Below, in pieces: positions 7,672 through 28,430 of a DNA stretch of 32,000 bases (position 1 is the stretch's first letter; every line of letters begins with the position of its first letter). Below the pieces are notes generated by a model, which worked only from the letters and a program-made list of their open reading frames with translations, was not told the DNA's origin and searched no databases. The translations under genes and the position numbers were made by a program. Source of the DNA: Chlamydiales bacterium (lineage in GTDB: Bacteria > Chlamydiota > Chlamydiia > Chlamydiales > SM23-39); the NCBI GenBank assembly GCA_965261025.1, contig OZ253438.1, positions 1,290,001-1,322,000 on the forward strand, given 5' to 3'.

Positions 7672-7756
7672 GATACTTTTAAAATTGTGGGATAAAGGCA
7701 GTTATGGTATCCTGTGCTGCAGCAAAACTTTTTAATTATCATGGAATGGGGAAAAT

Positions 7757-8125: not shown

Positions 8126-8135
8126 GGAGTGGGGT

Positions 8136-8561: not shown

Positions 8562-8582
8562 AAGATAGGAGTTTAAGTTTTT

Positions 8583-10099: not shown

Positions 10100-10106
10100 G
10101 GGTTTT

Positions 10107-10130
10107 CTTTTCTAAAAGAGAAGGCTTTTT
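10107..10130 (+). terminator. Candidate intrinsic terminator after rplQ
   Basis: cttttct (10107-10113) pairs with agagaag (10117-10123) across an aaa loop, with one G-U pair. A T-run follows at 10126-10130. The stem is weak and A/U-rich. Confidence 0.35.
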
Positions 10131-10221
10131 CCTGTCTTTTTTGCCTTCCTTTGTTTTTCACCATTCGGCTTTACTTTGATCTAAAATTTCTTTATGATGA
10201 GGAGAGTTTGGGAGGCTGGTT

Positions 10222-11232
10222 ATGCCGGTAAGACTTGCTATTAATGGGTTTGGAAGAATAGGGCGTTTAGTTTGTCGTATAGCTTGTAAAACCGAAGGGA
10301 TAGAACTGGTTGCTGTCAATGATTTAGCTGAGGTAGATCATCTGGCTTATTTACTTAAATATGATACTGTTCACGGGAGATTTGAGGGAGAGGTTTCCTA
10401 TGAAGAAAACTTTCTCATAGCAGGAGGGAAAAAAATAGCGGTTTATCAGGAGAAAGAACCAGAGAAGCTTCCTTGGAGGTCTTTGCAGGTAGATTACGTA
10501 GTTGAGTCTACGGGGAAATTTCGAAAAAAAGAAGAGCTAGAAAAGCATCTCAAGGCGGGAGCAAAAAGAGTGCTCCTTTCTGCTCCTGGAAAAGGCGAAG
10601 GGATTCCTACTTACGTAGTGGGAGTAAATCATAGAGAGTATGATGCTCAAAAAGAGCAGATCCTATGCAATGCTTCCTGTACCACAAATTGCTTAGCTCC
10701 TCTCGTTAAGGTTTTATGGGATCATTTTGGCATTGAAGAAGGGCTTATGACTACAGTTCACTCGCTTACGGCAAGTCAGCCTACTGTAGACGGGCCTTCG
10801 GAGAAAGATTGGAGGGGAGGAAGGGCTGCTGGGTATAACATTATACCTTCCTCTACGGGTGCTGCTAAGGCGGTGGTGGAGTGTCTTCCTGAAATGAAAG
10901 GCAAAATTACCGGTATGGCCTTTCGGGTTCCTTGTCTTGATGTTTCTGTGGTGGATTTGACAGTTCGGTTAAAAAAGAAAACTTCTTATGAGGAGATTTG
11001 TAAGGTGATAAGACAGGCCTCAGAAAAGGAAATGAAAGGAATCATAGAATATACAGAAGAGGAAGTAGTCTCTTCTGATTTTATAGGCAGTTCTAGCTCC
11101 TGTATTTTTGATAAAAAAGCAGGGATATCTCTTAACCCGTGCTTTTATAAGTTAGTGGCATGGTACGACAATGAAATGGCTTATGCGCATCGTTTGATTG
11201 ATCTGATATGTCACATGGCATCTAAAGAGTAA
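10222..11232 (+). CDS. gap: Glyceraldehyde-3-phosphate dehydrogenase
   Basis: NGFGRIGR Rossmann motif, active-site SCTTNCLAP, and WYDNEMAY near the C-terminus. Confidence 0.96.
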
Positions 11233-13519: not shown

Positions 13520-13603
13520 ATGCCTTTACAATCCAAAAGCTATTTAAGATTTGGTTGTGTTTTTTTAGGGCTATTTTATGTTTTTTCCTTTCCTGTTCAT
13601 GCA
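13520..13603 (+). other. Sec signal peptide of the autotransporter (aa 1-28)
   Basis: Basic n-region (K6, R10), hydrophobic core FGCVFLGLFYVFSF, and a VHA|T cleavage-like site. Confidence 0.7.
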
Positions 13604-16600: not shown

Positions 16601-19600
16601 GCAGGGGTTTTACAAGGAGACACAGGTAGCATTTTAGGAAATATTGCAAATACAGGATCGGTAATCTTTAATCAAGGAACTACTGGAGCATTTTCGGGGG
16701 ATATTTCCGGAACAGGCTCCATTACGAAACAAGGAGCAGGGACACTGATCCTTTCAGGAAGTAATAGCTATAGCGGGGGAACTACGATTTCAGCGGGAGC
16801 CCTCCAAGGAGATACAACAAGCTTAACCGGGAATATTACTAATAGTAGTTCCTTAGTATTTGATCAGGAATCTCTCGGAACCTTTTCAGGAGATATTTCC
16901 GGAACGGGCTCCGTTACCAAACAAGGAGCAGGGACACTAATCCTTTCAGGAAGTAATAGCTATAGCGGGGGAACTACGATTTCGGTAGGGGCTTTACAAG
17001 GAAATACAACAAGCTTGACAGGAGATATAACCAATAATAGCTCTTTGGTTTTTAATCAAATTAGTACTGGGACTTTTTTGGGGGATATTTCCGGGACGGG
17101 TTCGGTTACTAAGCGAGGAACAGGCGTTCTCATTTTATCAGGCACAAATACTTATAGTGGAGGAACCAATATCAATGCAGGAACATTACGTATTGCAAAC
17201 GATAGTTTACTTGGGAGTGGAGAGGGGGGAGTTACTTTTGGAGGCGGAAATTTAAATACTACAGACACATTTTCTACTGCGAGAAATATTGCTTTATCAG
17301 GAAATGGGGCTTTTGAAGTAGATGCTTCTACAAGTCTAACCTGTAGTGGAGATATTGGTGGTAGTGGGTCGTTAACAAAACTGGGAAGCGGGAATCTTAT
17401 CTTGACAGGCTCTAACAGTTATACCGGGGGAAATATTGTTTCTGCAGGAATTTTACAGGGAGATGCAGGTAGTATTTCGGGGAATATAGCTAATGCAGGA
17501 TCTATTGTATTCAATCAAGAATCTCTCGGAACCTTTTCGGGAGATATTTCAGGGATAGGCTCTGTTACGAAACAAGGGGCGGGGACACTAATCCTTTCAG
17601 GAAGTAATAGCTACAGCGCGGGAACCACAATTTCAGCAGGGACTTTGCAAGGAGATACAACGAGCTTGACAGGAGATATAACCGATAATGCTTCTTTGGT
17701 TTTTACACAAAGTAGTACTGGGACTTTTTTGGGGGATATTTCCGGGACAGGCTCTGTTACCAAACAAGGAGCAGGGACATTAATCCTTTCAGGAAGTAAT
17801 AGCTATAGCGCGGGAACTACGATTTCAGCAGGAGCTCTCCAGGGAAATACAGCAAGCTTAGTAGGAAATATTACCAATAATAGCTCTTTAATATTTGATC
17901 AAGGAACTACCGGAACCTTTTCGGGGGATATTTCCGGGACAGGTTCCGTTACAAAGCAGGGAACAGGCGTTCTCATTTTATCAGGCACAAATACTTATAG
18001 TGGAGGAACCAATATCAATGCGGGAGTGTTGCGTATTGCAAATGATAATTTACTGGGGGATATAGGAGGAGGAGTTACTTTTGGAGGAGGGACTTTACAT
18101 ACTACAGCTACCCTTTCTACTGGAAGAAGTATTGCCTTATCAGGAAATGGCACTTTTGAGGTAAATACCTCTACGAGTTTAACCTGTAGTGGAGCTATTA
18201 GTGGTAGTGGACTGTTAACAAAACTGGGAAGTGGCAATCTCATCTTGACAGGCTCTAACAGCTATACGGGAGGAAATGTTGTTTCAGCAGGAGTTTTGCA
18301 AGGAGATACAAATAGTATCTTAGGAGATATAGCCAATGCAGGATCGGTGGTATTTGATCAGGGAAGCAGTGGGACTTTCTCGGGAGATATTTCCGGAACG
18401 GGTTCCGTTACCAAGCAAGGAGCAGGGACATTAATCCTTTCAGGAAGTAATAGCTATAGCGCGGGAACTACGATTTCAGCGGGGGCTTTGCAAGGAAATG
18501 CAAACAGTATAGTGGGAAATATCACTAACAATAGCTCTTTAATATTTGATCAGGGAACTACCGGAACCTTTTCAGGAAATATCTCCGGGACAGGCTCTGT
18601 CACCAAGCAAGGAGTGGGAACCTTAACTTTTTCAGGAAGTAATAGTTATAGCGGAGGAACTACCATTTCAGGGGGAGCCCTGCAAGGGAATACAGGTACC
18701 ATAGCAGGAAATATTACCAACAATAGCTCTTTAATATTTGATCAGGGAAGCAATGGGACGTTTTCAGGGGATATTTCCGGAACGGGTTCCGTTACCAAGC
18801 AAGGAGCAGGGACATTAATCCTTTCAGGAAGTAATAGCTATAGCGGAGGAACTACCATTTCAGGGGGAGCCCTACAAGGGAATACAGGTACCATAGCGGG
18901 AAATATTACCAACAATAGCTCTTTAATATTTGATCAGGGAACTACCGGAACGTTTTCAGGGGATATTTCCGGGACAGGCTCTGTTACGAAACAAGGAGCA
19001 GGAAGACTTATTTTAGGAGGCAGCAGCAGCTACACCGGGGGGACATCCCTAAATGCTGGAATTTTACAGGTATTCAGTGGGAGCGCTCTAGGAAATAGCA
19101 TAGGAGAAATTGATTTTGCAGGGGGATCTTTGAACACGACTGGAACTTTTACCTTACCACATAATGTTTCGTTATCTTCTGAGGGGATATTTGAAGTGGA
19201 CACTTCGACAACTTTAACCTGTAGCGGTGTTATCAGTGGTAATGGATCTTTGACAAAGCTTGGAAATGGCAGCTTGGTTCTGACTGGATCTAATACTTAT
19301 TTGGGTGGAGCTTCTGTTTCACAAGGGGTTTTGGAAGGTAATACGACAAGTCTTTTCGGTAATACTGTGAATAATGCCGTGCTACGTTTTAACCAGAATT
19401 TTTCAGGATCTTATGGAGGGATTGTTACAGGAACAGGGACGTTAGTTAAAACAGGTTCCGGAAAAAGTATTTTTTCAGGAAATCTTACGCAGAATTTGTT
19501 TTCTGTAGAAGCAGGGACAATGACTGTGAATGGGCAAGTTACAGGTCCAGTTCAAATAGCCTCTTCCGCAGTTTTAGAAGGAAACGGTAGAATAGTAGGT

Positions 19601-21055
19601 AACGTAAACAATAACGGAATCATAGCAGCAGGGAACTCCACTACTTTGGATATACAAGGAGATCTTTCTATGGAAACCGGAAGCTCTTTGAATGTAGTAG
19701 CAGCACCTGATAGTCCCACTCTTCTTGCAGTTACAGGAGAAACATCCATAGGTGATGATACTTCTTTAGTCATATCCTTAGCAGATGCAGATTATAACGC
19801 AGATACTTCTGTTCCCATTTTACAATCAGATGGGGGAATTATTGGTAAATTTAGTGAAGAACTCAATAATATGCCCCTTTTGGGTTTATCGGTTTTATAT
19901 TCACCTACATCTATGGCTTTAGCTTTTTCTCCTGAGGATTTTTCCTCCGTAGCAGAAGGAGAAGATGCAGTAGTATTGGCCAATTATCTAGATGAAATTC
20001 CTTCTAGTGAAATAAATAGTGACTTGCAGCGAGTTATTAATCAGTTATATTCTCTGCCAAGCAGTGCAGAACTGTCTTCTGCTTTGGATCAATTGCAGCC
20101 AGTACAGTTTAGTGGTTTTTCTCTGGCCCAAGAGGAAATTTCTGTAGCTTTATCCCAAAATATTTTTCGTCGAATAGAAGAATTAGTAAACCAACGGGCA
20201 TGTGGACATTTTTGTTCAGGTAAAAGATTTCTTTGGGAAAATTTATTTTATGTGGGCTCTAAACAGAAGAAAGTCTCTGAACACGTTCCTTTCACCACAG
20301 ATACAGAAGGGGTAATTCTTGGAGGAAATGGAACTATTTCGGAGGAGATCATCTTAGGACTTGGCTCTGCTTTTTCTAATACGAATATCGCTTGGAAAGA
20401 AGATAGAGGTAAAGGACAAACTTTGACCGGATATTTATTTATTTATGGGACAGGGTCTTTTTCTCCTGGCTTTATTCGGTGGAATTTTATGGGTGAGTTG
20501 AGTCATTTTCAGGCAAGGAGACGTATTCAGTTTGCTACTATTCACCGTCAAGCAAATCATTCTAATAACGGTCATGGATTTTCTGGATATATAGACTTTG
20601 GCATCTTGGGAAGAAAACACAGAGCTTTTGCAGTGAACCCTTTTGCTAGTATCAATTCTGCCTGGTTTTGGGAAAATTCATACCAAGAAGAGGAGGCAGA
20701 AAGTATAAGTTTATCGGTTCGCAAAAGGAGATTAAATCTTTGGAGATTTGAGGTGGGTTTAGAGCTCTCCGGCTGTTTTGAAACAAAAAAGGCTACTATT
20801 TCTCCGAACTGTAAAGTATTTTGTGCTAAAGAAGTAAGAACTCTTGGAAAAACCTTTACGGCTAGATTTACTTCCGTAGAGCCCTCTTTTAGGGTAACTG
20901 GATTTAATCCCAACAGAGATTATCTCGGTTTTGAGACATATCTAGACGCGTGTTTATTAGATAAATTATTATCGATTCGTTTAGGAGTAAATGGTCAGTT
21001 TGCTAAAAAATACCAACAATATGGTGGAGAACTAAACATAGGACATCATTTTTAA
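13520..21055 (+). CDS. Giant autotransporter adhesin (2511 aa): signal peptide, beta-helix cap, Gly-rich region, PATR-type repeat array, C-terminal beta-barrel
   Basis: Signal peptide MPLQSKSYLRFGCVFLGLFYVFSFPVHA|TD. N-terminal VTNTNDSGAGSLRNAI cap motif. GGAIFV/GGAIFI motifs plus FSSN. Dozens of G.G.L.LSG.N.Y.GGT.I..G.L repeats. ALDQLQP linker. The C-terminal ~290 aa have alternating beta-strand character and end in ...NIGHHF (terminal Phe). Confidence 0.9.
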   Translation: MPLQSKSYLRFGCVFLGLFYVFSFPVHATDFTVTNTNDSGAGSLRNAIDSANSASGGSHQVLFQVDLSGTITLQSSLPTITTKIITIAGPSSGSIIIDGDSTHQGFFIEADVVVAISNLSLQNMRAKGGNGGPGRSGGGGALGAGGAIFVESGADVSISSVAFGSCSAVGGDGGTANTGIRFSGGGGGGGMRNAPGGDVTQSLVSNIGGGGGGGLEGSGGNAQSGGSGGGGKSNRGGDCLSLALITDVGGGGGGGSGENPGETGDIIPGGNGGDGFESSSGGQGGTTAGQDGALGTSGGGGGGGASNIVGASGSGGSGSTPGGGGGGAGTTLLSTGSTTSGTGGGGGKYGGGGGGGGALTSISASVTAGSGGNGGYGSGGGGGGGALVAAGIGSATGGSGGNSTFGGGGGGGGIGFGVTSGGNGGFGGGGGGSGGSTGLGGTAGFGGGNGGNSSNRGGGAGAGLGGAIFIEGSGLVTFSGSGTLFSSNSTTAGTGSDGGADGTASGDDLFIQSGAEIVFAVTDTVTIGSDIASNQSSGGSFSKSNTGTLNLTGNNTFTGNISVSGGTLSIISDNALGVSTNAVSISSGAVLNLSSDMSSSRALTLGSGGGVLNISPSFTTTWSGNISESAVAGFTKDGTGILTLSGTNTYSGGTNINAGTLRIANDNLLGSVGGGVTFGGGTLHTTATLSTGRSIALSGNGTFEVDTSTSLTCSGAISGSGLLTKLGSGNLILTGSNSYTGGNVVSAGVLQGDTTNILGDIANAGSVVFDQGSTGTFSGDISGAGSVTKQGAGTLILSGSNSYSGGTTISAGALQGDTTSLTGNITNSGSLVFDQESLGTFSGDISGTGSVRKQGTGMLIFSGSNSYSGGFTISEGALQGDTTSLTGNITTSGSLVFDQGSTGTFSGDISGTGSLTKQGTGVLILSGTNSYSGGTNINAGTLCIANDSLLGDIGGGITFGGGNLNTTATLSTGRSIALSGNGTFEVDTSTSLTCSGAISGSGLLTKLGSGNLILTGSNSYTGGNVVSAGVLQGDTGSILGNIANTGSVIFNQGTTGAFSGDISGTGSITKQGAGTLILSGSNSYSGGTTISAGALQGDTTSLTGNITNSSSLVFDQESLGTFSGDISGTGSVTKQGAGTLILSGSNSYSGGTTISVGALQGNTTSLTGDITNNSSLVFNQISTGTFLGDISGTGSVTKRGTGVLILSGTNTYSGGTNINAGTLRIANDSLLGSGEGGVTFGGGNLNTTDTFSTARNIALSGNGAFEVDASTSLTCSGDIGGSGSLTKLGSGNLILTGSNSYTGGNIVSAGILQGDAGSISGNIANAGSIVFNQESLGTFSGDISGIGSVTKQGAGTLILSGSNSYSAGTTISAGTLQGDTTSLTGDITDNASLVFTQSSTGTFLGDISGTGSVTKQGAGTLILSGSNSYSAGTTISAGALQGNTASLVGNITNNSSLIFDQGTTGTFSGDISGTGSVTKQGTGVLILSGTNTYSGGTNINAGVLRIANDNLLGDIGGGVTFGGGTLHTTATLSTGRSIALSGNGTFEVNTSTSLTCSGAISGSGLLTKLGSGNLILTGSNSYTGGNVVSAGVLQGDTNSILGDIANAGSVVFDQGSSGTFSGDISGTGSVTKQGAGTLILSGSNSYSAGTTISAGALQGNANSIVGNITNNSSLIFDQGTTGTFSGNISGTGSVTKQGVGTLTFSGSNSYSGGTTISGGALQGNTGTIAGNITNNSSLIFDQGSNGTFSGDISGTGSVTKQGAGTLILSGSNSYSGGTTISGGALQGNTGTIAGNITNNSSLIFDQGTTGTFSGDISGTGSVTKQGAGRLILGGSSSYTGGTSLNAGILQVFSGSALGNSIGEIDFAGGSLNTTGTFTLPHNVSLSSEGIFEVDTSTTLTCSGVISGNGSLTKLGNGSLVLTGSNTYLGGASVSQGVLEGNTTSLFGNTVNNAVLRFNQNFSGSYGGIVTGTGTLVKTGSGKSIFSGNLTQNLFSVEAGTMTVNGQVTGPVQIASSAVLEGNGRIVGNVNNNGIIAAGNSTTLDIQGDLSMETGSSLNVVAAPDSPTLLAVTGETSIGDDTSLVISLADADYNADTSVPILQSDGGIIGKFSEELNNMPLLGLSVLYSPTSMALAFSPEDFSSVAEGEDAVVLANYLDEIPSSEINSDLQRVINQLYSLPSSAELSSALDQLQPVQFSGFSLAQEEISVALSQNIFRRIEELVNQRACGHFCSGKRFLWENLFYVGSKQKKVSEHVPFTTDTEGVILGGNGTISEEIILGLGSAFSNTNIAWKEDRGKGQTLTGYLFIYGTGSFSPGFIRWNFMGELSHFQARRRIQFATIHRQANHSNNGHGFSGYIDFGILGRKHRAFAVNPFASINSAWFWENSYQEEEAESISLSVRKRRLNLWRFEVGLELSGCFETKKATISPNCKVFCAKEVRTLGKTFTARFTSVEPSFRVTGFNPNRDYLGFETYLDACLLDKLLSIRLGVNGQFAKKYQQYGGELNIGHHF
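13900..14920 (+). repeat. Low-complexity GGN-codon (poly-Gly/PGRS-like) region within the autotransporter
   Basis: About 340 codons dominated by Gly runs (GGGGGGG, GGNGG, GGSGG) separated by short variable segments. Includes (GGA)7 at 14069-14089. Bounded by the two GGAIF(V/I) motifs. Boundaries are approximate. Confidence 0.9.
15140..19550 (+). repeat. Array of ~32-aa autotransporter-associated beta-strand (PATR-like) repeats organised as 192-nt (64-aa) double units
   Basis: 192-nt spacing measured twice: 15872 vs 16064 (GSVTKQG / GSVRKQG) and 18651 vs 18843 (gcggaggaac). Consensus is G(T/A)G.LILSGSNSYSGGTTISAGALQG......G.I.N..SL.F.Q...GTFSGDISG. Outer boundaries are approximate. Confidence 0.85.
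15431..18802 (+). repeat. Four tandem in-frame copies of an 843-nt (281-aa) super-repeat
   Basis: The string ggaggaaccaatatcaatgc recurs at 15473, 16316, 17159 and 18002, exactly 843 nt apart. ggaacag unit starts lie at 15431 and 16274. Confidence 0.93.
20000..21052 (+). other. Linker plus autotransporter beta-barrel translocator domain (approximate)
   Basis: SAELSSALDQLQPVQFSGFSLAQEE helix/linker motif, then amphipathic strand-like segments. C-terminal ...GGELNIGHHF ends in an aromatic residue, typical of BAM substrates. Confidence 0.75.
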
Positions 21056-21059: not shown

Positions 21060-22328
21060 TTAAAAAGCTTTTTTAGTCGTTTGAAGTATGTACAGACCCA
21101 GAAAAAGAAATAAAGCGGAAATAGGATAAAATGTATAGATACTGATAGCTCCTGTAAGGGCTCCTAAAATAGGAACTAAGAAAAGCCCTAAGGAGAACAT
21201 GGATTGCGCTATACCCATGGCTTTTCCTTGTACATTAGCAGCAGAGGAAATGGAGATTAAATTAAACGTGGAGCTTAAAGAAACAGCTCCCACAATGGCT
21301 GAGATGGCATAGGTAAAAATAAAAGAGGAAAAATTAGGCATGAAAGCCGCAGCCGTAAGTAATAGGGCGGTTAACAAGTAGGAGAGCTTTGCAATGGACC
21401 AAGTATTCATAAGCCTTAATAAAATAGGATTGACTAAAGAGCCTCCTAAAGCCCATCCAGTTCCTTGAATCATTAGTCCTAAAGTGCTGGTTTTTTGAGA
21501 AATCCCAAAATGTTTTATTACATAGGCTCCATACCAGGTAATAGAGTACCCCCAACCAAGAGTCCATAGCAAAAGCAGGAAAAAGAAGCGTCTCGTATCC
21601 CGCATACGAAGGGCTTCAATAATGTTATGTATTCCCTTGGAAAGATCAATTTTTGTTTTCCCCTCTGCCCTTTGGTAGGTTTCTGAAAAAAAGACTGCTA
21701 AACTAACAAGACTTAACGTAGTAAGAATCCCCGCCACGTAAAAAGGTAAGGAAGGATTGAACCACTTAGAAAGAGAAGGGTCAGAGAGAAATCCTCCTAG
21801 TATTAGAGCAATAGGAAAGCTGACTCCCCATACCACAGTCAAAATGCCGTAATTTCTAGCTCTTTGTTTTTCATTAGGGCTCAAATCAGCAATAGAGGCG
21901 TTACAAAGCCCTTGATTGCCTGAAAACAGACCCGTCAGAAATCGAGCAACGAAAAGCAGGAAAATGCTTTTAACCATCAAAACAAGCCCTGTGAGGAAGT
22001 AGGCTCCGATTACTAAGATAATAGAAACAAAAAAAATCTTTTTTCTCCCATAGCGGTCTGCTAACTCCCCCATGATGGGTGCGCCTATCAATTGCGCTAT
22101 GGGAAAGGCCGCATAGAGAGTGCCTATAGCAAGAAGTTTTGTTGTCAAACTAGGATCTTGTCGTAAAAATCCATAATCTGGATTAAGCAATAAAGAGGGA
22201 AAAAGAACAAAGACCATGGCATAACCACAATTGTCAACAGCTGCAATAAAATAGACAGTAAACAAAGATTTTATTCGGGAGACAGATTTCATTTCTCTTG
22301 TATAGCAAAGGAATGAATAAAAAGTCAA
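21060..22328 (-). CDS. MFS transporter (DHA1/drug:H+ antiporter-like)
   Basis: Twelve-TM-like hydrophobicity. MFS motif A GELADRYGRKK between TM2 and TM3. The ORF-track start at 22328 is TTG; the ATG at 22292 (MKSVSRIKS...) is the more likely start. Confidence 0.85.
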   Translation of the reverse strand: MTFYSFLCYTREMKSVSRIKSLFTVYFIAAVDNCGYAMVFVLFPSLLLNPDYGFLRQDPSLTTKLLAIGTLYAAFPIAQLIGAPIMGELADRYGRKKIFFVSIILVIGAYFLTGLVLMVKSIFLLFVARFLTGLFSGNQGLCNASIADLSPNEKQRARNYGILTVVWGVSFPIALILGGFLSDPSLSKWFNPSLPFYVAGILTTLSLVSLAVFFSETYQRAEGKTKIDLSKGIHNIIEALRMRDTRRFFFLLLLWTLGWGYSITWYGAYVIKHFGISQKTSTLGLMIQGTGWALGGSLVNPILLRLMNTWSIAKLSYLLTALLLTAAAFMPNFSSFIFTYAISAIVGAVSLSSTFNLISISSAANVQGKAMGIAQSMFSLGLFLVPILGALTGAISIYTFYPISALFLFLGLYILQTTKKAF

Positions 22329-22341: not shown

Positions 22342-23757
22342 TTAACAGATAGTCTTATTATCTCGAACTGCTTTCTTAAAAGAGTTTCCTAAGAAAAGAG
22401 CCACAATGAACCATAGAACCAAAAGAGGGGCACATAAAATAAGACTTAAGGTTAAATAATAAGATCTACCTACAAGCATACCAAAAGTGTTTTGTAGAGG
22501 ACTTAAAGACATATTGAAGATAGAGCCTGCCTGCTTGGAAGATCGGGATCCAAAAGTTTCTATCCAGGCTTGTGCTTTAAATTTTACGTCTGGAGTAGTC
22601 GGGATGTAGAGCTGCTTTAAGGCAGGGCCGTTTAAAGCATAGTTGATTGCCTTAGACCCAACCATCAAACCAAAAAGGAAAGAAAGAGAATCCAAGGTCA
22701 CAAAACCAAAAAGCGCAAAACCTACAATAATAGGCATTAAGGATAAAGCCGTTTTTATACCTAGAAAACGGGTAATATTACTAATCCCTAAAAGCAGACA
22801 CGACAAAGATATGACATTTACAATAGACCCGTAAATGCTTAGGTAATTGCTCAAGGCAACTCCTGAATAGACCGATCCAGCAGCTAGTTTAAAATTAAAA
22901 TCGAATATAGTAACTGCCACTTCATAAATAAAATTGGAAGCAAAAATACACAAAAGATATCGATTCTTTACAAGAAGTTTTAATCCTTCCAAAAAACCGG
23001 GTTCTTGTTTTTTTTCTACTGTTTTTTCATTCCCTCCATGGAAGGCCTGAAGAAGATCTTTAGGAGTTTTTTTTAAAAAGTAGCGGATCATAGGGATAAT
23101 ACAAAGAATGAAAAGGCCCAGGAGAAATATAGAAAGAGAGTCGGTAAGTAGTTTCAATCTGTGAGGGAGCCCCCCTATTCCATAAGGGAAAAGAATGCCT
23201 CCTATTTGTCCAATAGCTACCACCAAGGGAAATCCTCTTTTTGCATGGGAGGGTTCTGTAGTATCCGCTGCAAAAGCCCAAAATAAAGCTACCATCAAAG
23301 AACCAAAGCTTTCCACAAAGAGATACCAAAAATAGCCAATCGCTTGCGTACTCAAAGATCCTAAAAAAGATCCTCTAGCAAGCTGTTCAGAAGAAGCTTG
23401 GAGGAAAAACATTAAAAGACTCATCAGTAAAATGGCAATGCCATAAAAACAAGGTAAGATAATAAGCATCTTCTCTCTGGAAGTTTTTTCTATGAGTTTA
23501 GTGTAAAACATAACCAGAGGTAGAAGAGCTATAACGGAAATAGTTTTAGCAAAGGGGAGTTGGTATTTACCCACGAGATGTATAAAAATAGAGTCCTTCA
23601 AAGGGCGAAGAGTCCAGTAAGCCCCTATGATCAGAGCAAAAATGAGGCCCATTCTTAGAAATTTCTTAAACTCTTCTCTCTCAAAGGTTCCAAAATTAAA
23701 ACGGCAAACCCATTGAAAAAAATCCAGAAGACCTTTTTTTTGTTTCACGAAAACCAT
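22342..23757 (-). CDS. Nucleotide transporter of the NTT/TLC (ATP:ADP antiporter, Npt) family
   Basis: Colinear with recalled chlamydial Npt1: [12 protein letters not shown] vs [53 protein letters not shown] vs [80 protein letters not shown] vs [41 protein letters not shown]. Substrate is unknown. Confidence 0.85.
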   Translation of the reverse strand: [471 protein letters not shown]

Positions 23758-23865: not shown

Positions 23866-25047
23866 TCATTTTTGAATCTTTTTAGGGTTTTTCTTAAGTC
23901 TTTCTAGTTTTTTTTGTAGTTTAGACTCTCTCTTTTCTGTCTTGACCCGGATCTCTCCTGGAGGAAGAGTAGGGGTAAATTTTTGTAAAGAGGCATATTT
24001 TTTTAAGACTTTGTAACAATAAAGGCAGCAGTGTTCAGGCAAAAGACTCTCCTGAGCAAGCTTCCTTCCCTGCATAGCAATTTTTTTTGCTTCTGCATCA
24101 TTTTGTTTGCACCATTCGATTTTTTCTATGAGATCACTTAGATCCTCCTCTATAGGGACATAGTGAACCCAGGGCTTTAGAGGATAAAAGTACCACATTT
24201 TATTTTTAGATTTCTGCTTTAAAACAGTACAATTAGACAAAAGCCTCCACTGAAGACCTGGGTATGTGGCAGTATGCCCGTCTACATTCACTTGATACTT
24301 AAATCTTAAGTGTTCCCTGACAGATAAAAAGGGCTTATGAGGATCAAATCCTGTGTTACGAATAATCCTTTGCACAGAAGTTTCAAGCCAATTAGTCCCT
24401 GCATTAAGGTGATGAGGATATACGCTAGATAAATAACATAACTTTCCTCTAGGGGTTTCAAAAAATCCCCTTGGAGAGTAGTCATACTGGTAGCCTTGAA
24501 GGCCTCCCCGCCATATAGCAGTAGGAATTTTGCTTTCCCAAGGAAGCTCTTTACTGGTCTGCTCCACTAAGATAGAGTTGTAAGTCCAGTCATAGGCTTC
24601 GGAGCAGTGCTCCGGATCTGTCCGAGTAGGGTCAAAGTTCCAATCTGCAAAATAGATGACATGGGTAAAATCTTCGTGTTTCGTGCTGGCTAATACGGGT
24701 CCATCTACAGTAGGGGGATTTCTTTCTCCTCTGGGGCCTCGAACAAAACCATCTTCCACCAAATAAAGAAACTCCACATCGGGTATCGTGTATTTTCGGC
24801 AAAGAACTGACAAAAGGTTATGAGTTTTTCCTGAGGGTCCATAGACTTTATTATCAATGATCTTAAAGCGAACATAACGGTGCCATTGGGGAGAGGCTTT
24901 CTCTATCATCTCCAGAGTAATCCCAGAAGAAAAGGGGGAGAAATCTTTTTCGATTGCCTCGTCCATCCAATCGTTAGGGCCGGCCCAGGACAAAGAGCAG
25001 AAAAAAAGAAAGAAAGAAAAAAAACAGCGCTTCATGAAAAACCTCAA
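23866..25047 (-). CDS. GT90/CAP10-domain glycosyltransferase, POGLUT1 (Rumi)-like protein O-glucosyltransferase homologue with an N-terminal signal peptide
   Basis: Colinear with recalled human POGLUT1 (392 aa): [17 protein letters not shown] vs [29 protein letters not shown] vs [34 protein letters not shown] vs [39 protein letters not shown] vs VKANDDVAQEIAERGSQ. The ORF-track start is TTG at 25047 (TTGA overlap with the upstream stop). The ATG at 25035 has gagg 6 nt upstream and gives [19 protein letters not shown]. Confidence 0.85.
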   Translation of the reverse strand: [393 protein letters not shown]

Positions 25048-25835
25048 GAATTTAATTTGTCATATAATTTATAGAAAACAGGCTTGCCTTTTCCTCCATT
25101 TCCATGGAAGATACTCGGATAAGTATTCGTTTCTTTTAGGCGAACTTCCCCTTTTTTTACTTTTAATTCCTTGAGATCTACATCAAATAGACTGCAAAAT
25201 ATCTCGCAGGAGGTATCCAGATAAATCAGGTCTGAGTGGTTTACATAATAAGTTTGATATAGAGCTTGATCACTGTGCATGCCAGGAAGAATTTCGGAGA
25301 TAACTTCTTCTAACATAGCCTTTAAAGCGCCTGCATACCCTATGAATCCTCCTGCATTCAAATACTTAAAAGAAGTACGGGCCTTTTGAAAGTAGGGTTT
25401 TAAATGGGTTTGGGGATAGCAATTTCTTTCTGTGGAGAAGACAATAGGAGCTTTCTTTTCCAAGAATTTCTCAACAATCTTTTTCTGTCCTGCACAAAAA
25501 AAGACATCACAGGCATCCACGCAGACAACAATATCTTCGTCAGGAAGAGTCTTGATAAATTCATAAAACCAAATCGGTTTGGTAACATTTCCTCCCCAAG
25601 AAGTAGCTTCCTTTCCTATGTGGGTAAGGGAGATTCCGTGTTTTTCAGCAGAGTCAAAAAGACGAGACATGTAGGTATAAGGATCTTTACCGGGATAACA
25701 TCCTACAGTGCAGAAGTGAGCTTTTCCCTTTTTTTCTTTCCAGATATTCTTCTGTCTTATCAAGGAGGTATTATTGTGCGCAAAGAGAGAGGGGAAAAAA
25801 AACCCTAAAATAAGAACAAAACGGTACCATTTCAT
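25044..25835 (-). CDS. Lysyl hydroxylase 3 (PLOD)-type N-terminal glycosyltransferase-domain homologue, signal-anchored, with no hydroxylase domain
   Basis: Matches to the recalled LH3 GT domain: DEDIVVCVDACDVFF vs REDMIIMFVDSYDVIL (DxxD conserved); IVFSTERNCYPQ vs LLFSAESFCWPE; FKYLNAGGFIGYAG vs KRFLNSGGFIGFAT; SDQALYQTYY vs DDQLFYTRLY; YPSIFHGNGG vs LPIVVHGNG. The ATG at 25835 forms an ATGA overlap with the upstream stop, with ggggga SD-like sequence upstream. The ORF track begins at TTG 25850. N-terminus MKWYRFVLILGFFFPSLFA. Confidence 0.8.
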   Translation of the reverse strand: MKWYRFVLILGFFFPSLFAHNNTSLIRQKNIWKEKKGKAHFCTVGCYPGKDPYTYMSRLFDSAEKHGISLTHIGKEATSWGGNVTKPIWFYEFIKTLPDEDIVVCVDACDVFFCAGQKKIVEKFLEKKAPIVFSTERNCYPQTHLKPYFQKARTSFKYLNAGGFIGYAGALKAMLEEVISEILPGMHSDQALYQTYYVNHSDLIYLDTSCEIFCSLFDVDLKELKVKKGEVRLKETNTYPSIFHGNGGKGKPVFYKLYDKLNS

Positions 25836-26680
25836 GAATCTTTCCCCCAATTTTTTCCATCTAAATGAGTCACAAAAGGCCCCTCTCCATAAGATCCGTA
25901 CAAGAAGACCCCAAACTCTTTGTATTTATTAGGGTCTTTTACACAAGCATTTCGGATGGGGTGTGCTAGCTCCCATTCCATAGCAATGGGTCTATTTCCC
26001 ACTCGAGGGAAGACAAAAGTCTCGTAGTACTTTTTAGAGGTTAGGTGTTCATGGTCAGACCAGTTATAAGAGATACAAAGAGGAATATGAGAAGGACCTT
26101 CATAAGGAATGGCTGCTACTTGCGCTGTTCCATAAGGTATATTTTTTGCGCGAGTAAAGTGAACGTATTGGATAAAGGGGTTTCTTTCCATAGAGCTCAT
26201 AACTCCTTCTAGGTCCAAAGGTTTTTCCAAAACAAAATCATGTTGATGGACAAAGATAAAAGGAGTCTTTACAAAAGAAAGAGCCTCCCTTAAAGCCCCT
26301 GTTAAGTGGCCATGCTCTTTCAAAAAAACCAGCAAAGTATTCTTAAAATAGGGGCTCTCTTCTATAAGTTTTCTGCACCCTTTCTTATACCCCTCGTAAG
26401 CCGTTTTTAAGAAAACTCCCTTTCTCATTTCTAATGAGTAGAACTTTTTAGGTGGCTCATCAAAAACAATAATCTTTGGCATACTCTCAAAGCCAGGCTG
26501 CTGATACCAACTTTTAAAGGAGGTTTCTAAAAGCTCTGTACTAGGATGGCCAGGAACGGCGCTAGTATTGGTAATAAACGTGATTCGAGAAGAAGAAGAG
26601 TCTAGAGTGCCGTAAGTTTCTACGTTAATAGAAAACCCCGTAGAGAACCCTAAAAAGAATAAAAAAAGAAAAAACTTCAT
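25832..26680 (-). CDS. Secreted/anchored protein of unknown family, possibly a GT-A-fold (GT2-like) glycosyltransferase with a non-canonical QHD in place of DxD
   Basis: Signal peptide MKFFLFLFFLGFSTGFS. The layout resembles a GT-A fold: ITFITNTSAVPGHPSTELLETSFKS (beta1/alpha1), PKIIVFDEPP, HGHLTGALREALSFVKTPFIFVHQHDFVL (equivalent to N.G...ARN.G...A.G.YI.FLD.DD). GGAG SD lies 5 nt (catt-a spacing) upstream of the ATG. Family assignment is weak. Confidence 0.4.
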   Translation of the reverse strand: MKFFLFLFFLGFSTGFSINVETYGTLDSSSSRITFITNTSAVPGHPSTELLETSFKSWYQQPGFESMPKIIVFDEPPKKFYSLEMRKGVFLKTAYEGYKKGCRKLIEESPYFKNTLLVFLKEHGHLTGALREALSFVKTPFIFVHQHDFVLEKPLDLEGVMSSMERNPFIQYVHFTRAKNIPYGTAQVAAIPYEGPSHIPLCISYNWSDHEHLTSKKYYETFVFPRVGNRPIAMEWELAHPIRNACVKDPNKYKEFGVFLYGSYGEGPFVTHLDGKNWGKDS

Positions 26681-26901
26681 AATGCTCCGAATTTTTTTTT
26701 GCAGAGGTTGTATTTCTTTTTTCCTTTTTCAGTCAATTCTTTTTTACCTGGTAAATAGGAAGTTCTTTTCAATGAATCGGATTAAAGTAATGAGGAAAAA
26801 AAGCAGAAAACCAGTAAATAACTTCGTTTTCCCTTTTTTCAAAGAGGGGGGAGTTGACTTTTTTTTCAGAAAAAGTCTTTTTAAGAAAAAAGGATAGAAA
26901 A

Positions 26902-27762
26902 ATGGAGGAAGAAACCCCTATTCGGGGAGTAGTTTATGGTATCTTTATGGCCTTGGCTTATTCCCTCATGGCAATCTTTGTAAAACTTACCAAAGACACT
27001 CCGAATCAAGTTATCGTATTTTATCGCAGTATGATAGCTCTTTTTTTTATCTCTCCTTGGCTTTATAGGAAGAAAAACGAATTAGGAGGAAGGAAAAAGT
27101 ACCTTTACTGGATAAGAAGTTTATCAGCACTTTTTGCTGTATATTGCTATTTCTATAGCCTAAAGCACCTTTCTTTGTTAAACAGTATCCTCTTAGCTAA
27201 CACCGCACCTCTTTTTGTACCTTTAGTTATTTGGCTTTGGCTAAAAAAAAGAATTGCTACAAAAAGGATTCTTTCGATTTGTATAGGATTTCTGGGGGTA
27301 GTTCTCCTTTTGCAGCCCACTTCAAAAGGATGGGGCTTAGCTACCCTTATAGGGTTGGGGACAGGCCTTTTTTCCGCTATTGCCCTTGTAGGGGTAAGGC
27401 AATTAACCAAAACAGAAAAACCTCTTTCGATATTGTTTTATTTCTTTCTCCTTTCTGCTTTTCTCTCTTTTTTCCCCTTCGTGATAGGAGGGGAGCTTTT
27501 CCCGGAGAAGGGAGAAAGGCTCTACGTCTTAGCTACTGGCCTTATGTCAATAATCTATCAGTTTTTTATTACAAAGACCTATACCTCCCTCCCTCCCTCC
27601 AAGGCAGCGGGCTTTTTGTATCTTAGCCTAGTTTTTGGAGGCTTTTTCGACTGGATTTTATGGGGTAAGTTATTCACCTACAGTACATTGCTTGGGGTTA
27701 TTTTTGTAGCTGTGGGAGGATTTTTGACTCTTTATGAAAAGCCTAAGATATTTTTCAAATAA
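26902..27762 (+). CDS. EamA/DMT-superfamily transporter (10-TM, two EamA repeats)
   Basis: MEEETPIRGVVYGIFMALAYSLMAIFVKL..., typical EamA helices and the NTAPLFVPLVIWLWLKKR mid-protein junction. The ORF track starts at TTG 26854; the ATG at 26902 is preferred. Transcribed divergently from the GT operon. Confidence 0.8.
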   Translation: MEEETPIRGVVYGIFMALAYSLMAIFVKLTKDTPNQVIVFYRSMIALFFISPWLYRKKNELGGRKKYLYWIRSLSALFAVYCYFYSLKHLSLLNSILLANTAPLFVPLVIWLWLKKRIATKRILSICIGFLGVVLLLQPTSKGWGLATLIGLGTGLFSAIALVGVRQLTKTEKPLSILFYFFLLSAFLSFFPFVIGGELFPEKGERLYVLATGLMSIIYQFFITKTYTSLPPSKAAGFLYLSLVFGGFFDWILWGKLFTYSTLLGVIFVAVGGFLTLYEKPKIFFK

Positions 27763-27887: not shown

Positions 27888-28430
27888 ATGTCTAACCAAT
27901 TAGAAATAGCAAATCAAGTGGCTCCAAGCTATTTGGAGAGAGCTTCTTGGGGTCTTACAAGTGGGGCATGCCGAGCGGGATATACGCTTTTACCTGAAGT
28001 AAGAGAAGGAGTTTCTTATAAAAATATAGCAAAGGTAGCTGTATTAGGATACACTACTCTCCAGCTTGTTGCTATAGCTGCCATCGCTTTAAAATATGCC
28101 GCCTTAGTTGGGGCTTTTTATCTAGTTATGAACTCTTATCAAAAACAAAGTGCAACCAATCGTGTAATTCAAGACGTACAGGGTCATTCCCAAGAGCTTG
28201 TAGGAAATATAAACAAAATCATAGAACTACTAACTGTGAGGTTTGGTCTCATAGCTGTCTCACCTGCTCTTCAAGCTATCCAAGAACAATCAGAAAAGGT
28301 AATAGAAGAAAAAGAAAAACTAGAAGAAGAAAACGAAAAGTTAAAACAACAAATAAAAGAATTTGAAAATAGAATCTCCCAACAAAGAGACCTTTCTAAG
28401 ATTCTTTCTGCCGGATTTTTTGTTCAATAA
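27888..28430 (+). CDS. Hypothetical membrane protein with a bilobed hydrophobic domain and C-terminal coiled coil (Inc-like)
   Basis: VAVLGYTTLQLVAIAAIALKYAALVGAFYLVMNSY forms two hydrophobic lobes split by a short turn. The C-terminus EKVIEEKEKLEEENEKLKQQIKEFENRISQQ is heptad-like. This architecture is typical of chlamydial inclusion-membrane proteins; no sequence homologue was recognised. Confidence 0.45.
   Translation: MSNQLEIANQVAPSYLERASWGLTSGACRAGYTLLPEVREGVSYKNIAKVAVLGYTTLQLVAIAAIALKYAALVGAFYLVMNSYQKQSATNRVIQDVQGHSQELVGNINKIIELLTVRFGLIAVSPALQAIQEQSEKVIEEKEKLEEENEKLKQQIKEFENRISQQRDLSKILSAGFFVQ

What the first reader, a model, noticed from the sequence alone, without database searches (positions are those of the whole stretch)
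25044..25850. Stand-alone homologue of the collagen lysyl-hydroxylase-3 glycosyltransferase domain with the DxxD metal/UDP motif conserved
Blocks CVDACDVFF, FSTERNCYP, YLNAGGFIGY and FHGNGG occur in the same order and with similar spacing as FVDSYDVIL, FSAESFCWP, FLNSGGFIGF and VHGNG of the LH3 N-terminal GT domain. That domain has Gal-Hyl glucosyltransferase activity.

The 2-oxoglutarate/Fe(II) hydroxylase domain that accompanies this GT domain in animals and in mimivirus L230 is absent here and from the rest of the window. So the enzyme either acts on a non-hydroxylysine acceptor or depends on a hydroxylase encoded elsewhere.

The nearby autotransporter is extremely Gly-rich, but it is not a G-X-Y collagen-like sequence. 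A direct collagen-type substrate link is therefore not supported by the sequence.
Basis: partly seen in the sequence, partly recalled or inferred. Interest (0 to 1): 0.72.

Follow-up and report, generated by a model that had tools for sequence, protein, structure and literature searches.

The report
Exported PLOD-type glycosyltransferase in bacterial operon
This gene does encode a single-domain relative of the sugar-adding domain of the animal collagen enzyme LH3, but such stand-alone relatives are common in bacteria and giant viruses, and this one sits in a three-gene sugar-transferase operon unrelated to collagen.

Summary
It encodes a 263-aa protein that matches Pfam PF25342 (PLOD GT domain) at E 9e-31. 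A high-confidence model superposes on human LH3 and mimivirus R699. The DxxD...H metal triad and nearly all sugar-contacting residues are kept.

The stand-alone form is not unusual. There are about 3,450 representative clusters, 29 bacterial species loci and 170 viral loci. A lysyl-hydroxylase domain lies next to the GT in 29 of 80 viral loci but only 1 of 29 bacterial loci. The window has no hydroxylase and no collagen-like ORF.

- The gene is the middle of a tightly coupled operon: a probable GT-A protein, this GT, then a POGLUT-like GT90.
- All three proteins have Sec-type N-termini.
- The host is probably a chlamydia-like intracellular bacterium.
- The uracil-stacking Tyr of DxxD, and a second uracil contact, are both Cys in this clade.

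Best reading: an exported, hydroxylase-independent, Mn2+/UDP-hexose retaining transferase that extends a sugar laid down by its operon partners. It is a new member of a known kind, of moderate interest.

The parts
25044..25835 (-). CDS of the 263-aa PLOD-family (PF25342) single-domain GT-A glycosyltransferase.
   Evidence: ORF. Pfam E 9.3e-31. Identical to P0001, 263 aa. AF2 pLDDT 93.3. Foldseek to LH3 and R699 at E about 1e-19. Start context.
25779..25835 (-). N-terminal Sec-type signal peptide or anchor, MKWYRFVLILGFFFPSLFA (aa 1-19). Possible cleavage after LFA.
   Evidence: Hydrophobicity and charge analysis; coordinates checked. No dedicated signal-peptide predictor was available. The sister copies continue with acidic residues (LFA/EN, LFA/ED).
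25506..25517 (-). DxxD metal-binding motif D107-A-C109-D110, equivalent to LH3 D112-S-Y114-D115. The uracil-stacking Tyr is replaced by Cys.
   Evidence: Alignments. Column counts: D 253/253 and D 252/253; the position is aromatic in 235/253 domains and Cys only in the four sequences of this clade. Coordinates checked.
25095..25106 (-). H244-G-N246-G motif, equivalent to LH3 H253 (third Mn2+ ligand), N255 and G256.
   Evidence: Residue roles from PMC6082870 and PMC12279948.
25832..26680 (-). Upstream operon gene ORF282, 282 aa, with a signal-like N-terminus. Probable GT-A glycosyltransferase with HQHD in place of DxD. Its stop overlaps the GT start as ATGA.
   Evidence: Weak GT2 hits over the same model region in ORF282 (E 0.29) and in its 38% relative P0157 (E 0.0027). 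P0157 lies in a GT-rich locus. Weak similarity to a GT2-like ORF downstream of GT_PLOD in L025 and L026. The structure model was poor.
23866..25035 (-). Downstream operon gene: GT90 / POGLUT-like glycosyltransferase with a signal peptide. Its ATG lies 8 nt after the GT stop and is preceded by GAGG.
   Evidence: PF05686 E 3.9e-42. Human POGLUT2 2.1e-28, POGLUT1 1e-15, Rumi 1e-12. Junction.
22342..23757 (-). Divergent TLC-family nucleotide transporter on the same strand, 108 nt downstream of GT90. Possibly co-transcribed.
   Evidence: PF03219 E 8.9e-24. 85% identical and syntenic in the sister MAG. No terminator-like site in the gap.
21060..22328 (-). MFS transporter on the same strand, 13 nt after the TLC gene. 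It is not conserved at this position in the sister MAG.
   Evidence: PF07690 E 4.9e-42. Sister locus gene list.
26854..27762 (+). Divergently transcribed EamA/DMT transporter. The adjacency is conserved in the sister MAG.
   Evidence: PF00892 E 2.9e-28..

Best explanation
The gene encodes a 263-aa, single-domain, retaining GT-A glycosyltransferase of the PLOD/LH3 GT family.

Shown by sequence and model:
- The fold is that of the LH3 and R699 GT domains.
- D107, D110 and H244 form the Mn2+ site.
- K86, N160, D189-Q190, E136, N246 and K251 match the residues that hold the donor glucose, the acceptor sugar and the UDP phosphates in R699 and LH3.
- The gene is the middle member of a translationally coupled operon: ORF282 (probable GT-A), then this GT, then a POGLUT-like GT90.
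- All three products start with Sec-type signal sequences.

Inferred:
- The protein is exported to the periplasm or beyond. The host is probably a chlamydia-like intracellular bacterium.
- It uses a UDP-hexose, most likely UDP-glucose.
- It adds an alpha-linked hexose to a sugar already attached by a partner enzyme, for example a beta-hexose that the GT90 places on a Ser/Thr of a secreted or surface protein. This would build a short O-glycan.
- It does not need hydroxylysine or collagen.
For: Family and fold:
- Pfam E 9.3e-31.
- The family profile hits the LH3 GT domain at 5.5e-46.
- AF2 pLDDT 93.3.
- Foldseek gives LH3 and R699 at E about 1e-19 with TM 0.70-0.79, while the next fold, GT6, scores 3e-8.

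Catalytic residues: they are conserved here and in 229-253 of 253 family domains. Their roles are taken from PMC6082870 and PMC12279948. R699 accepts glucose as well as Gal-Hyl and makes Glc-alpha1,2-Glc, so the acceptor pocket is a sugar pocket and not a collagen pocket.

Operon: ATGA overlap and an 8-nt gap with GAGG. The order is conserved in the sister MAG, which carries two tandem GT copies. The GT90 hits POGLUT2 at 2e-28.

No hydroxylase link: an LH-like domain sits next to the GT in 29 of 80 viral loci but only 1 of 29 bacterial loci, and in neither the window nor the sister locus.

Export:
- All three proteins have hydrophobic N-termini of signal-peptide type.
- Chlamydial homologues share them, whereas Bacteroidota and Acetobacteraceae homologues start directly at strand beta1.
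- The mature GT has 8 Cys (3.0%) and the GT90 has 10.

Other Chlamydiae MAGs place this GT among other eukaryote-like GTs: GT2-TPR, Anp1-like and TcdA-like genes. A GT90 lies within 1 kb of a GT_PLOD gene in two giant-virus contigs.
Against: - No enzymatic data exist for any bacterial member.
- Two LH3 uracil contacts are Cys here (Y114 to C109, T46 to C46), and Y114A nearly abolishes LH3 activity. UDP binding may therefore be weakened, or the nucleotide may differ.
- The flexible 'glycoloop' is 8 residues shorter than in LH3.
- Leloir transferases outside the cytoplasm need a nucleotide-sugar supply there, which is unusual for bacteria.
- The segment after the hydrophobic stretch is Lys-rich (net +2 in the next 15 residues), so an uncleaved anchor cannot be excluded.
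- GT90 and ORF282 are not linked to this GT in the other bacterial loci examined, so the partnership rests on one lineage plus two viral contigs.
- ORF282's fold is unresolved.
- The organism's identity is inferred, not shown.
Confidence: 0.55

Rival explanations
1. It is a membrane-anchored cytoplasmic enzyme. The N-terminal hydrophobic segment is an uncleaved anchor, the catalytic domain faces the cytoplasm, and the operon builds a lipid-linked or lipooligosaccharide/polysaccharide glycan in the ordinary bacterial way.
For: Free-living bacterial relatives sit in polysaccharide-type clusters with GT2, GT4, sulfotransferase and methyltransferase genes and lack signal peptides. Seven stand-alone representatives have a TM segment followed by a strongly positive flank, which suggests a C-in anchor. 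The window protein has a Lys-rich stretch, RQKNIWKEKKGK, soon after the hydrophobic segment. Nucleotide sugars are cytoplasmic in bacteria (general knowledge).
Against: The GT90 and ORF282 N-termini are classical signal peptides followed by acidic residues (net -3 and -2). The sister GT copies have LFA/EN and LFA/ED, which look like cleavage sites. The high Cys content fits an oxidising compartment. No Wzx, Wzy, polyprenyl-phosphate transferase or LPS-core gene lies in the window.
Confidence: 0.2
2. It is a host-directed effector. The exported enzymes leave the bacterium (by type II secretion or vesicles) and glycosylate host proteins, using host UDP-sugars in the vacuole lumen, cytosol or secretory pathway.
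For: Both named partners are close to animal ER-lumen enzymes: POGLUT2 at 2e-28 and LH3. Exported forms are typical of Chlamydiae homologues. A Parachlamydiaceae MAG has 7 tandem paralogues, a pattern typical of host-interaction families. A neighbouring ORF, 27888..28430, looks like an inclusion-membrane protein.
Against: There is no evidence of secretion beyond the periplasm and no known host target. Known bacterial glycosylating effectors belong to other GT families (own knowledge). The operon is in a core chromosomal region with unremarkable GC content.
Confidence: 0.15
3. It is a true collagen-type galactosyl-hydroxylysine glucosyltransferase. The lysyl hydroxylase, the galactosyltransferase and a collagen-like substrate are encoded elsewhere in the 1.42-Mb genome.
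For: The acceptor- and donor-sugar residues of R699 and LH3 are conserved (E136, N160, D189, Q190, H244, N246). Collagen-like proteins occur in some bacteria (PMC9546862). One Chitinophaga relative is adjacent to a JmjC/Cupin_8 oxygenase.
Against: No LH, P4H or JmjC domain and no G-X-Y ORF is present in the window, and tblastn with the LH3 AC and LH domains found nothing in the 20-kb sister locus, whose called genes also carry no oxygenase or collagen Pfam family. Only 1 of 29 bacterial loci carries an LH domain. The operon partners are a POGLUT-like GT90 and an unrelated GT-A, not a GT25 galactosyltransferase. The AC domain, which contributes a lysine (K438) to the R699 UDP-binding triad, is absent.
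Confidence: 0.05
4. It is an altered-donor or non-catalytic variant. Replacement of both uracil contacts by Cys changes the nucleotide specificity or removes transferase activity, leaving a binding or scaffold role.
For: Y114 to Cys occurs only in the 4 sequences of this clade out of 253 family domains. T46 is Cys in the window and both sister copies, whereas the fourth clade member P0004 keeps Ser. Y114A is almost inactive in LH3. The sister genome keeps two diverged copies.
Against: The metal triad and all sugar-contacting residues are invariant across the clade at 49-68% identity, which indicates selection for catalysis. Trp80, the second stacking residue, is kept. The F112-F113 pair after DxxD might compensate (inference).
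Confidence: 0.05

Closest known systems
Human LH3/PLOD3 N-terminal GT domain (PDB 6fxk, 6wfv, 6teu)
   Same: Same Pfam family. The GT-A fold superposes at TM 0.70-0.79. Shared features are the DxxD + His Mn2+ site, the Lys89, Glu141, Asn165, Asp191-Gln192, Asn255 and Lys259 equivalents, and an N-terminal signal sequence.
   Different: This protein has no AC domain and no 2OG lysyl-hydroxylase domain. Its glycoloop is 8 residues shorter. It carries the substitutions Y114 to C, T46 to C, W145 to Y and D190 to S. It is bacterial, sits in an operon with other GTs, and has no collagen context.
Acanthamoeba polyphaga mimivirus R699 (PDB 9dyt, 9dzs, 9e92), a collagen Gal-Hyl glucosyltransferase and kojibiose synthase
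   Same: It is the best sequence hit in PDB (3.4e-18) and lacks a hydroxylase domain. The residues that contact the kojibiose product are conserved, except W118 to Y and D162 to S.
   Different: R699 has an AC domain. It dimerises through a GT-AC linker loop and uses K438 of the AC domain in its UDP-binding triad. All of that is absent here. R699 belongs to a virus that encodes collagens and the hydroxylase L230.
Uncharacterised stand-alone 'PLOD1-3-like GT domain-containing proteins' of bacteria and giant viruses (e.g. Gluconobacter/Gluconacetobacter, Chitinophaga, Parachlamydiaceae MAGs, Iridovirus LCIVAC01, Yasminevirus)
   Same: Same single-domain architecture of about 250 aa and the same catalytic motifs. 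Identity is 30-39%. The chlamydial members share the exported-type N-terminus.
   Different: The window clade is a separate long branch: the window protein, two sister-MAG copies and one metagenome protein at 49% identity. It has the Cys substitutions and the GT90/ORF282 operon context, which is not seen in the other bacterial loci.
Animal protein O-glucosyltransferases POGLUT1/Rumi and POGLUT2/3 (GT90), for the neighbouring gene
   Same: The adjacent gene is a GT90 with strong similarity to POGLUT2 (2e-28). It has the WRG and (F/H)KYQxNxDG motifs and a signal peptide.
   Different: No EGF-repeat substrate is known in this organism. The pairing of a GT90 with a PLOD-type GT is not a known pathway.

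Membership tests
PLOD/LH3-type GT domain (Pfam PF25342 GT_PLOD) | Score above the curated Pfam gathering threshold over most of the model | tested here: met
   107.3 bits against a cut-off of 27, E 9.3e-31, model positions 19-224 of 246. The relatives P0002-P0004 also match.
PLOD/LH3-type GT domain (Pfam PF25342 GT_PLOD) | GT-A fold that superposes on the solved LH3 and R699 GT domains better than on other GT-A families | tested here: met
   AF2 pLDDT 93.3. Foldseek gives LH3 at 1.5e-19 and R699 at 6e-19, with TM 0.70-0.79. The next family, GT6, scores 3e-8 with TM about 0.5.
PLOD/LH3-type GT domain (Pfam PF25342 GT_PLOD) | Non-canonical DxxD motif plus a C-terminal His as Mn2+ ligands (LH3 D112, D115, H253) | tested here: met
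   D107, D110 and H244 align in pairwise, profile and multiple alignments.
PLOD/LH3-type GT domain (Pfam PF25342 GT_PLOD) | Uracil sandwich Trp75/Tyr114 and the Thr46 hydrogen bond | tested here: not met
   The Trp is present (W80), but Tyr114 is Cys109 and Thr46 is Cys46. The Tyr position is aromatic in 235 of 253 family domains.
PLOD/LH3-type GT domain (Pfam PF25342 GT_PLOD) | Sugar- and phosphate-contact residues (LH3 K89, E141, W145, N165, D190, D191, Q192, N255, K259; R699 K62, E114, W118, N138, D162, D163, Q164, N218, K222) | tested here: met
   K86, E136, N160, D189, Q190, N246 and K251 are conserved. W145 is Y140 and D190 is S188; both variants are common in the family (Y in 67 and S in 61 of 253 domains).
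Collagen Gal-Hyl glucosyltransferase (LH3/PLOD2b/R699 type enzyme) | Accessory (AC) GT-like domain following the GT domain | tested here: not met
   The protein ends 12 residues after K251. tblastn with the LH3 AC domain finds nothing in the window.
Collagen Gal-Hyl glucosyltransferase (LH3/PLOD2b/R699 type enzyme) | Associated 2OG/Fe(II) lysyl hydroxylase, either fused or encoded in the same genome | tested here: not met
   None was found in the window or in the sister locus. The rest of the genome could not be searched with these tools.
Collagen Gal-Hyl glucosyltransferase (LH3/PLOD2b/R699 type enzyme) | Collagen-like G-X-Y substrate protein | tested here: not met
   Every run of six or more G-X-Y triplets in the six frames lies in the poly-Gly region of the PATR protein. 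The rest of the genome was not testable.
Collagen Gal-Hyl glucosyltransferase (LH3/PLOD2b/R699 type enzyme) | UDP-Glc:Gal-Hyl alpha-1,2-glucosyltransferase activity | not testable with these tools
   This needs an enzyme assay.
GT90 / protein O-glucosyltransferase family (neighbouring gene 23866..25035) | Pfam PF05686 above threshold and similarity to solved POGLUT structures | tested here: met
   145 bits against a cut-off of 24. POGLUT2 2.1e-28, POGLUT1 1e-15, Rumi 1e-12.
GT-A glycosyltransferase (upstream gene ORF282) | Recognisable GT-A/GT2 profile match or fold | tested here: inconclusive
   There are only sub-threshold GT2 hits: E 0.29 and E 0.0027 for the homologue P0157. E is about 1e-4 to a GT2-like ORF in L025 and L026. 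The AF2 model is poor, at pLDDT 50. There were no fold or profile hits.

The most novel reading that the evidence does not exclude
Chlamydia-like bacteria may run an ER-like, Leloir-type protein O-glycosylation pathway outside their cytoplasm. In this reading a Sec-exported POGLUT-like GT90 starts a glycan, and an exported PLOD-type GT and a third GT-A extend it. The target would be a bacterial surface protein or a host protein. The enzymes would be fed by host-derived UDP-sugars that reach the periplasm or vacuole lumen, possibly with help from the adjacent divergent TLC and DMT transporters. The Cys-for-Tyr/Thr changes in the uracil pocket would be an adaptation of this clade, either a disulfide or a changed donor.
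Probability: 0.2. Interest if true: 0.75.

Novelty: new member of a known kind. Interest (0 to 1): 0.4.

Why it matters
The PLOD-type GT domain is studied almost only as a collagen-modifying activity of animals and mimivirus. No bacterial member has a known substrate.

This locus gives a compact, testable case: three small exported enzymes in one operon, two of them close to animal ER enzymes. If they build an O-glycan outside the cytoplasm, that would be an unusual mode of bacterial glycosylation and a new aspect of chlamydial envelope or host-interaction biology. Small, soluble stand-alone enzymes of this family could also be useful alpha-1,2-glucosylating catalysts, as R699 is for kojibiose.

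If it is only one more cytoplasmic glycan-cluster GT, it is ordinary.

Tried and rejected
1. **Organism.** The window's genome is not among the GTDB species representatives scanned. Exact-sequence look-ups of three window proteins found nothing. A plasmid search, a GAPDH search of PDB, and Rfam/tRNA scans were uninformative. A literature search for the sister MAG's study code found nothing. The chlamydial assignment rests on four things: the nearest named homologues, TLC transporters, an Inc-like ORF, and a secY-rpsM-rpsK-rpoA-rplQ-gapA order that I recall from Chlamydia trachomatis (own knowledge).
2. **ORF282 fold.** The AF2 model built from 3 sequences was poor (pLDDT 50). Foldseek, hhalign against the GT_PLOD family and a PDB profile search gave nothing.
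3. **Phylogeny.** An NJ tree of 253 domains left the window clade on a long branch in an unresolved radiation. No statement on eukaryotic, viral or bacterial origin is justified.
4. **Conserved linkage of GT90 and ORF282 to GT_PLOD in other bacteria.** It was not found within 6 kb in 26 other bacterial loci. It appears only in the sister MAG, in two viral contigs for GT90, and weakly in two Bacteroidota MAGs for an ORF282-like GT.
5. **AFDB fold library.** It was not available.
6. **Collagen link to the Gly-rich PATR protein.** Rejected, because it has poly-Gly and not G-X-Y.
7. **Literature.** Two full-text searches, one for LH3-type glucosyltransferase with 'bacterial homolog' and one for Chlamydiae with GT90, returned no paper on a bacterial PLOD-type GT or a chlamydial GT90.

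Full report
**1. Observation**

The ORF listing gives an ORF at 25044..25850 on the minus strand (268 aa from a TTG). The minus-strand sequence around 25835 reads ...GAT TCA TGA AAT GG.... The ATG of MKWYR... (25835-25833) overlaps the TGA stop of the upstream ORF (25834-25832) and follows a GGGGGAAAG purine tract. The 263-aa product from that ATG is identical to a public protein, P0001, which lies on a 1,422,118-bp contig.

- Pfam PF25342 'PLOD GT domain' scores 107.3 bits (cut-off 27), E 9.3e-31.
- phmmer against PDB sequences gives mimivirus R699 at 3.4e-18 and human LH3 at about 1e-13.
- A profile of 32 stand-alone relatives hits the isolated LH3 GT domain (6wfv) at 5.5e-46 over the full domain. 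It aligns DAYDV/DSYDV, SAExxCxP/SAESFCWP, YLNSG/FLNSG, sDQ/DDQ and HGNG/HGNG.

An AlphaFold2 model (mean pLDDT 93.3, pTM 0.88) finds LH3 and R699 first (E 1.5e-19 to 1e-17, TM 0.70-0.79, rmsd 2.6-4.2 A). The next fold, GT6 alpha-1,3-galactosyltransferase, scores only 3e-8.

**2. Active site**

Residue roles come from the LH3 paper (PMC6082870) and the R699 paper (PMC12279948). I counted each position in an alignment of 253 family domains.

| LH3 residue | Window residue | Family count (of 253) |
|---|---|---|
| D112 | D107 | D in 253 |
| D115 | D110 | D in 252 |
| H253 | H244 | H in 229 |
| K89 | K86 | K in 232 |
| E141 | E136 | E in 241 |
| N165 | N160 | N in 247 |
| D191 | D189 | D in 232 |
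| Q192 | Q190 | Q in 251 |
| N255 | N246 | N in 211 |
| K259 | K251 | K in 91 |
| W145 | Y140 | Y in 67 |
| D190 | S188 | S in 61 |
| Y114 | C109 | aromatic in 235; Cys in 4 |
| T46 | C46 | T or S in 195 |

The first ten positions are conserved in the window protein. The W145 and D190 substitutions are common variants.

Two differences are specific to the window's small clade. The uracil-stacking Tyr114 inside DxxD is Cys109; Cys occurs only in this clade's 4 sequences. The uracil-bonding Thr46 is Cys46 in the window and both sister copies, while P0004 keeps Ser. Y114A nearly inactivates LH3.

The Trp75 equivalent (W80) is present, but the flexible Gly72-Gly87 loop is 8 residues shorter. So 'DxxD conserved' is true for the two Asp but not for the functionally important middle residue. 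The donor nucleotide is therefore less certain than the fold.

**3. How unusual is a stand-alone form?**

An exhaustive profile search found 3,454 representative clusters at E <= 1e-3 and 1,367 at <= 1e-10. Many are proteins of about 250 aa.

A scan of one genome per prokaryotic species found 29 loci. They include:
- six Chlamydiae/Parachlamydiales MAGs
- a Coxiella-like MAG
- Rickettsiales MAGs
- many Bacteroidota
- Methylophilaceae
- Gluconacetobacter

A scan of viral contigs found 170 loci, many of them giant-virus MAGs.

Public names include 'glycosyltransferase domain-containing protein' and 'PLOD1-3-like GT domain-containing protein'. The homology is therefore already captured by automatic annotation. 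The single-domain architecture is common.

I ran tblastn with the LH3 AC and LH domains. Results:
- An LH-type 2OG domain lies directly after the GT in 29 of 80 viral loci (L230-like).
- An AC-like domain is present in 11 of 80 viral loci.
- Only 1 of 29 bacterial loci has an LH-type domain, on a 3.9-kb Bacteroidia MAG contig.
- Nothing was found in the window or in the sister locus.

Bacterial members are thus, as a rule, not coupled to a lysyl hydroxylase.

**4. Context in the window**

The window is core chromosome. It carries a ribosomal-protein operon, secY, rpoA and gap, then a 2511-aa protein with 20 PATR repeats. The cluster of interest follows, and then obg and ABC transporter genes.

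The cluster runs on the minus strand in this order:
- ORF282 (25832..26680)
- the GT (25044..25835)
- a GT90 (23866..25035), whose ATG lies 8 nt after the GT stop behind a GAGG
- a 108-nt gap with no terminator-like site
- a divergent TLC-family transporter
- an MFS transporter

An EamA transporter is transcribed divergently upstream.

The GT90 is close to animal protein O-glucosyltransferases: POGLUT2 2.1e-28, POGLUT1 1e-15, Rumi 1e-12.

ORF282 has only two detectable relatives. The more distant one (38% identity) lies among GT11, GT25 and RXYLT1-like genes. ORF282 and that relative both give sub-threshold GT2 hits over the DxD region (E 0.29 and 0.0027). A GT2-like ORF downstream of GT_PLOD in two Bacteroidota MAGs matches the ORF282 profile at about 1e-4, aligning TPYIMSHDDDLVL with TPFIFVHQHDFVL. 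I call ORF282 a probable GT-A, no more. Its structure model failed.

The only close genome, GCA_964351495.1, keeps the order EamA | ORF280 | GT | GT | GT90 | TLC, with the GT duplicated in tandem.

**5. Export**

All three operon products begin with a short basic stretch, 12-15 hydrophobic residues and a small-residue site:
- GT: MKWYR-FVLILGFFFPSLFA|HN
- GT90: [20 protein letters not shown]
- ORF282: MK-FFLFLFFLGFSTGFS|IN

Among named homologues, the Chlamydiae copies carry such N-termini and the Coxiella-like copies carry a TM anchor. Bacteroidota, Acetobacteraceae and Actinomycetota copies start directly at strand beta1. Of 104 stand-alone representatives, 60 have a hydrophobic N-terminus and 44 do not. 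The mature GT has 8 Cys (3.0%) and the GT90 has 10 (2.6%), against 0-1.5% for most neighbours.

No dedicated predictor was available, so export is inferred. A Lys-rich stretch follows the GT's hydrophobic segment, so an anchor is not excluded.

**6. Organism**

The organism is not identified directly. Four observations support a chlamydia-like intracellular bacterium:
- The nearest named homologues are Parachlamydiaceae paralogues at 38-39% identity.
- TLC-type transporters are present.
- An ORF at 27888..28430 has a bilobed hydrophobic segment plus a coiled coil, as in inclusion-membrane proteins.
- The gene order secY-rpsM-rpsK-rpoA-rplQ-gapA matches Chlamydia trachomatis CT510-CT505 (own knowledge).

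**7. Mechanism proposed**

Shown: the fold, the metal and sugar sites, the operon structure, and the absence of LH, AC and collagen features.

Inferred by homology: a Mn2+-dependent retaining transfer of a hexose from a UDP-sugar, with UDP-Glc as the default. R699 transfers glucose to Gal-Hyl and also to free glucose, making Glc-alpha1,2-Glc. It uses residues that are conserved here. The acceptor site therefore recognises a sugar and not collagen.

With a POGLUT-like enzyme translated from the same message, the simplest pathway has three steps:
- The GT90 places a beta-hexose on a protein Ser/Thr.
- This GT caps or extends it.
- ORF282 adds or precedes a further step.

For exported enzymes the donor must be available outside the cytoplasm. 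In a vacuole-dwelling bacterium, host UDP-sugars are a conceivable source, and the adjacent transporters might contribute. That step is speculative.

**8. Rivals**

- A cytoplasm-facing anchored GT in ordinary glycan synthesis (0.2). This is supported by the contexts of free-living relatives, which sit among GT2, GT4, sulfotransferase and methyltransferase genes.
- A host-directed effector (0.15). A Parachlamydiaceae MAG carries seven tandem paralogues, and other Chlamydiae MAGs fuse or cluster this GT with GT2-TPR, Anp1-like and TcdA-like GTs.
- A true collagen enzyme with partners encoded elsewhere (0.05).
- A variant with changed donor or lost activity (0.05).

**9. Verdict**

The feature is a new member of a known, widely distributed and already auto-annotated family, not a rare architecture. 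Its operon partners, its apparent export and the clade-specific change in the uracil pocket make it a reasonable experimental lead. Interest is 0.4.

Noticed in passing
L008:4425-9764 (Parachlamydiaceae MAG CAWDEQ010000003.1): Seven tandem GT_PLOD paralogues (33-36% identical to the window protein), each with a signal-like N-terminus. They are flanked by Anp1/AC-like GT genes and a BMT/GH130-like gene.
   Followed up: partly
L005:3508-7101 (Chlamydiae MAG JAJFLX010000001.1): A 1197-aa secreted-type protein that fuses GT2, TPR, a GT2_4/Anp1 (AC-like) domain and a C-terminal GT_PLOD domain. The gene before it is a similar GT2-TPR protein.
   Followed up: partly
window 25506..25517 and codon 46 (25698..25700): Of the two LH3 uracil-contact positions, Y114 is Cys in all four sequences of the window's clade and T46 is Cys in the window and both sister copies (P0004 keeps Ser). 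Five of the eight Cys in the mature protein are clade-specific. A C46-C109 disulfide or a changed nucleotide specificity is possible but could not be checked without model coordinates.
   Followed up: partly
window 13520..21055 (+): A 2511-aa protein with 20 PATR repeats and a region of about 400 residues that is 29-49% Gly with long poly-G runs (local GC 0.53). Ser plus Thr make up 25% of the protein. No Pfam autotransporter beta-barrel hit was reported.
   Followed up: partly
window 27888..28430 (+): A 180-aa ORF with no Pfam hit. It has a bilobed hydrophobic segment of about 45 residues followed by a coiled-coil-like acidic/Lys-rich tail, which resembles chlamydial inclusion-membrane (Inc) proteins. 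It is only 32% identical to its counterpart in the sister MAG.
   Followed up: no
window 22342..23757 (-): The TLC-family transporter is very divergent from the Pfam model (84.6 bits) and also matches MFS_1 weakly. Yet it is the best-conserved gene of the cluster, at 85% identity to the sister MAG. Its substrate is unknown.
   Followed up: no
L017:78-7789 (Chitinophaga eiseniae): The GT_PLOD homologue lies between a 1952-aa GH94-supersandwich/glucoamylase-type protein and a Cupin_8/JmjC 2OG-type oxygenase. This is a different kind of hydroxylase neighbour from LH.
   Followed up: no
L021:3952-11003 and L018 (Flavobacteriia): The order Methyltransf_24, GT2, GT_PLOD and an unknown 284-aa ORF is followed on the opposite strand by a HlyD-type gene and a 736-aa ORF. 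This may be a secreted glycosylated product cluster.
   Followed up: no
L078:2597-4207 and L073:4001-5593 (giant-virus contigs): A GT90 homologue (28-31% identical to the window GT90) lies within about 1 kb of the GT_PLOD gene, repeating the pairing seen in the window.
   Followed up: partly
L032-L034 (Logan metagenome contigs): The only distant homologue of ORF282 sits in a dense cluster of GT11, GT25, RXYLT1_C-like and Methyltransf_24 genes. The source organism is unknown.
   Followed up: no
window 6307..11232 (+): The gene order is secY, two short ORFs (presumably rpsM and rpsK), rpoA, a short ORF (presumably rplQ) and gap, with no adk, map, infA or rpsD between them. As I recall, this matches Chlamydia trachomatis CT510-CT505.
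   Followed up: no
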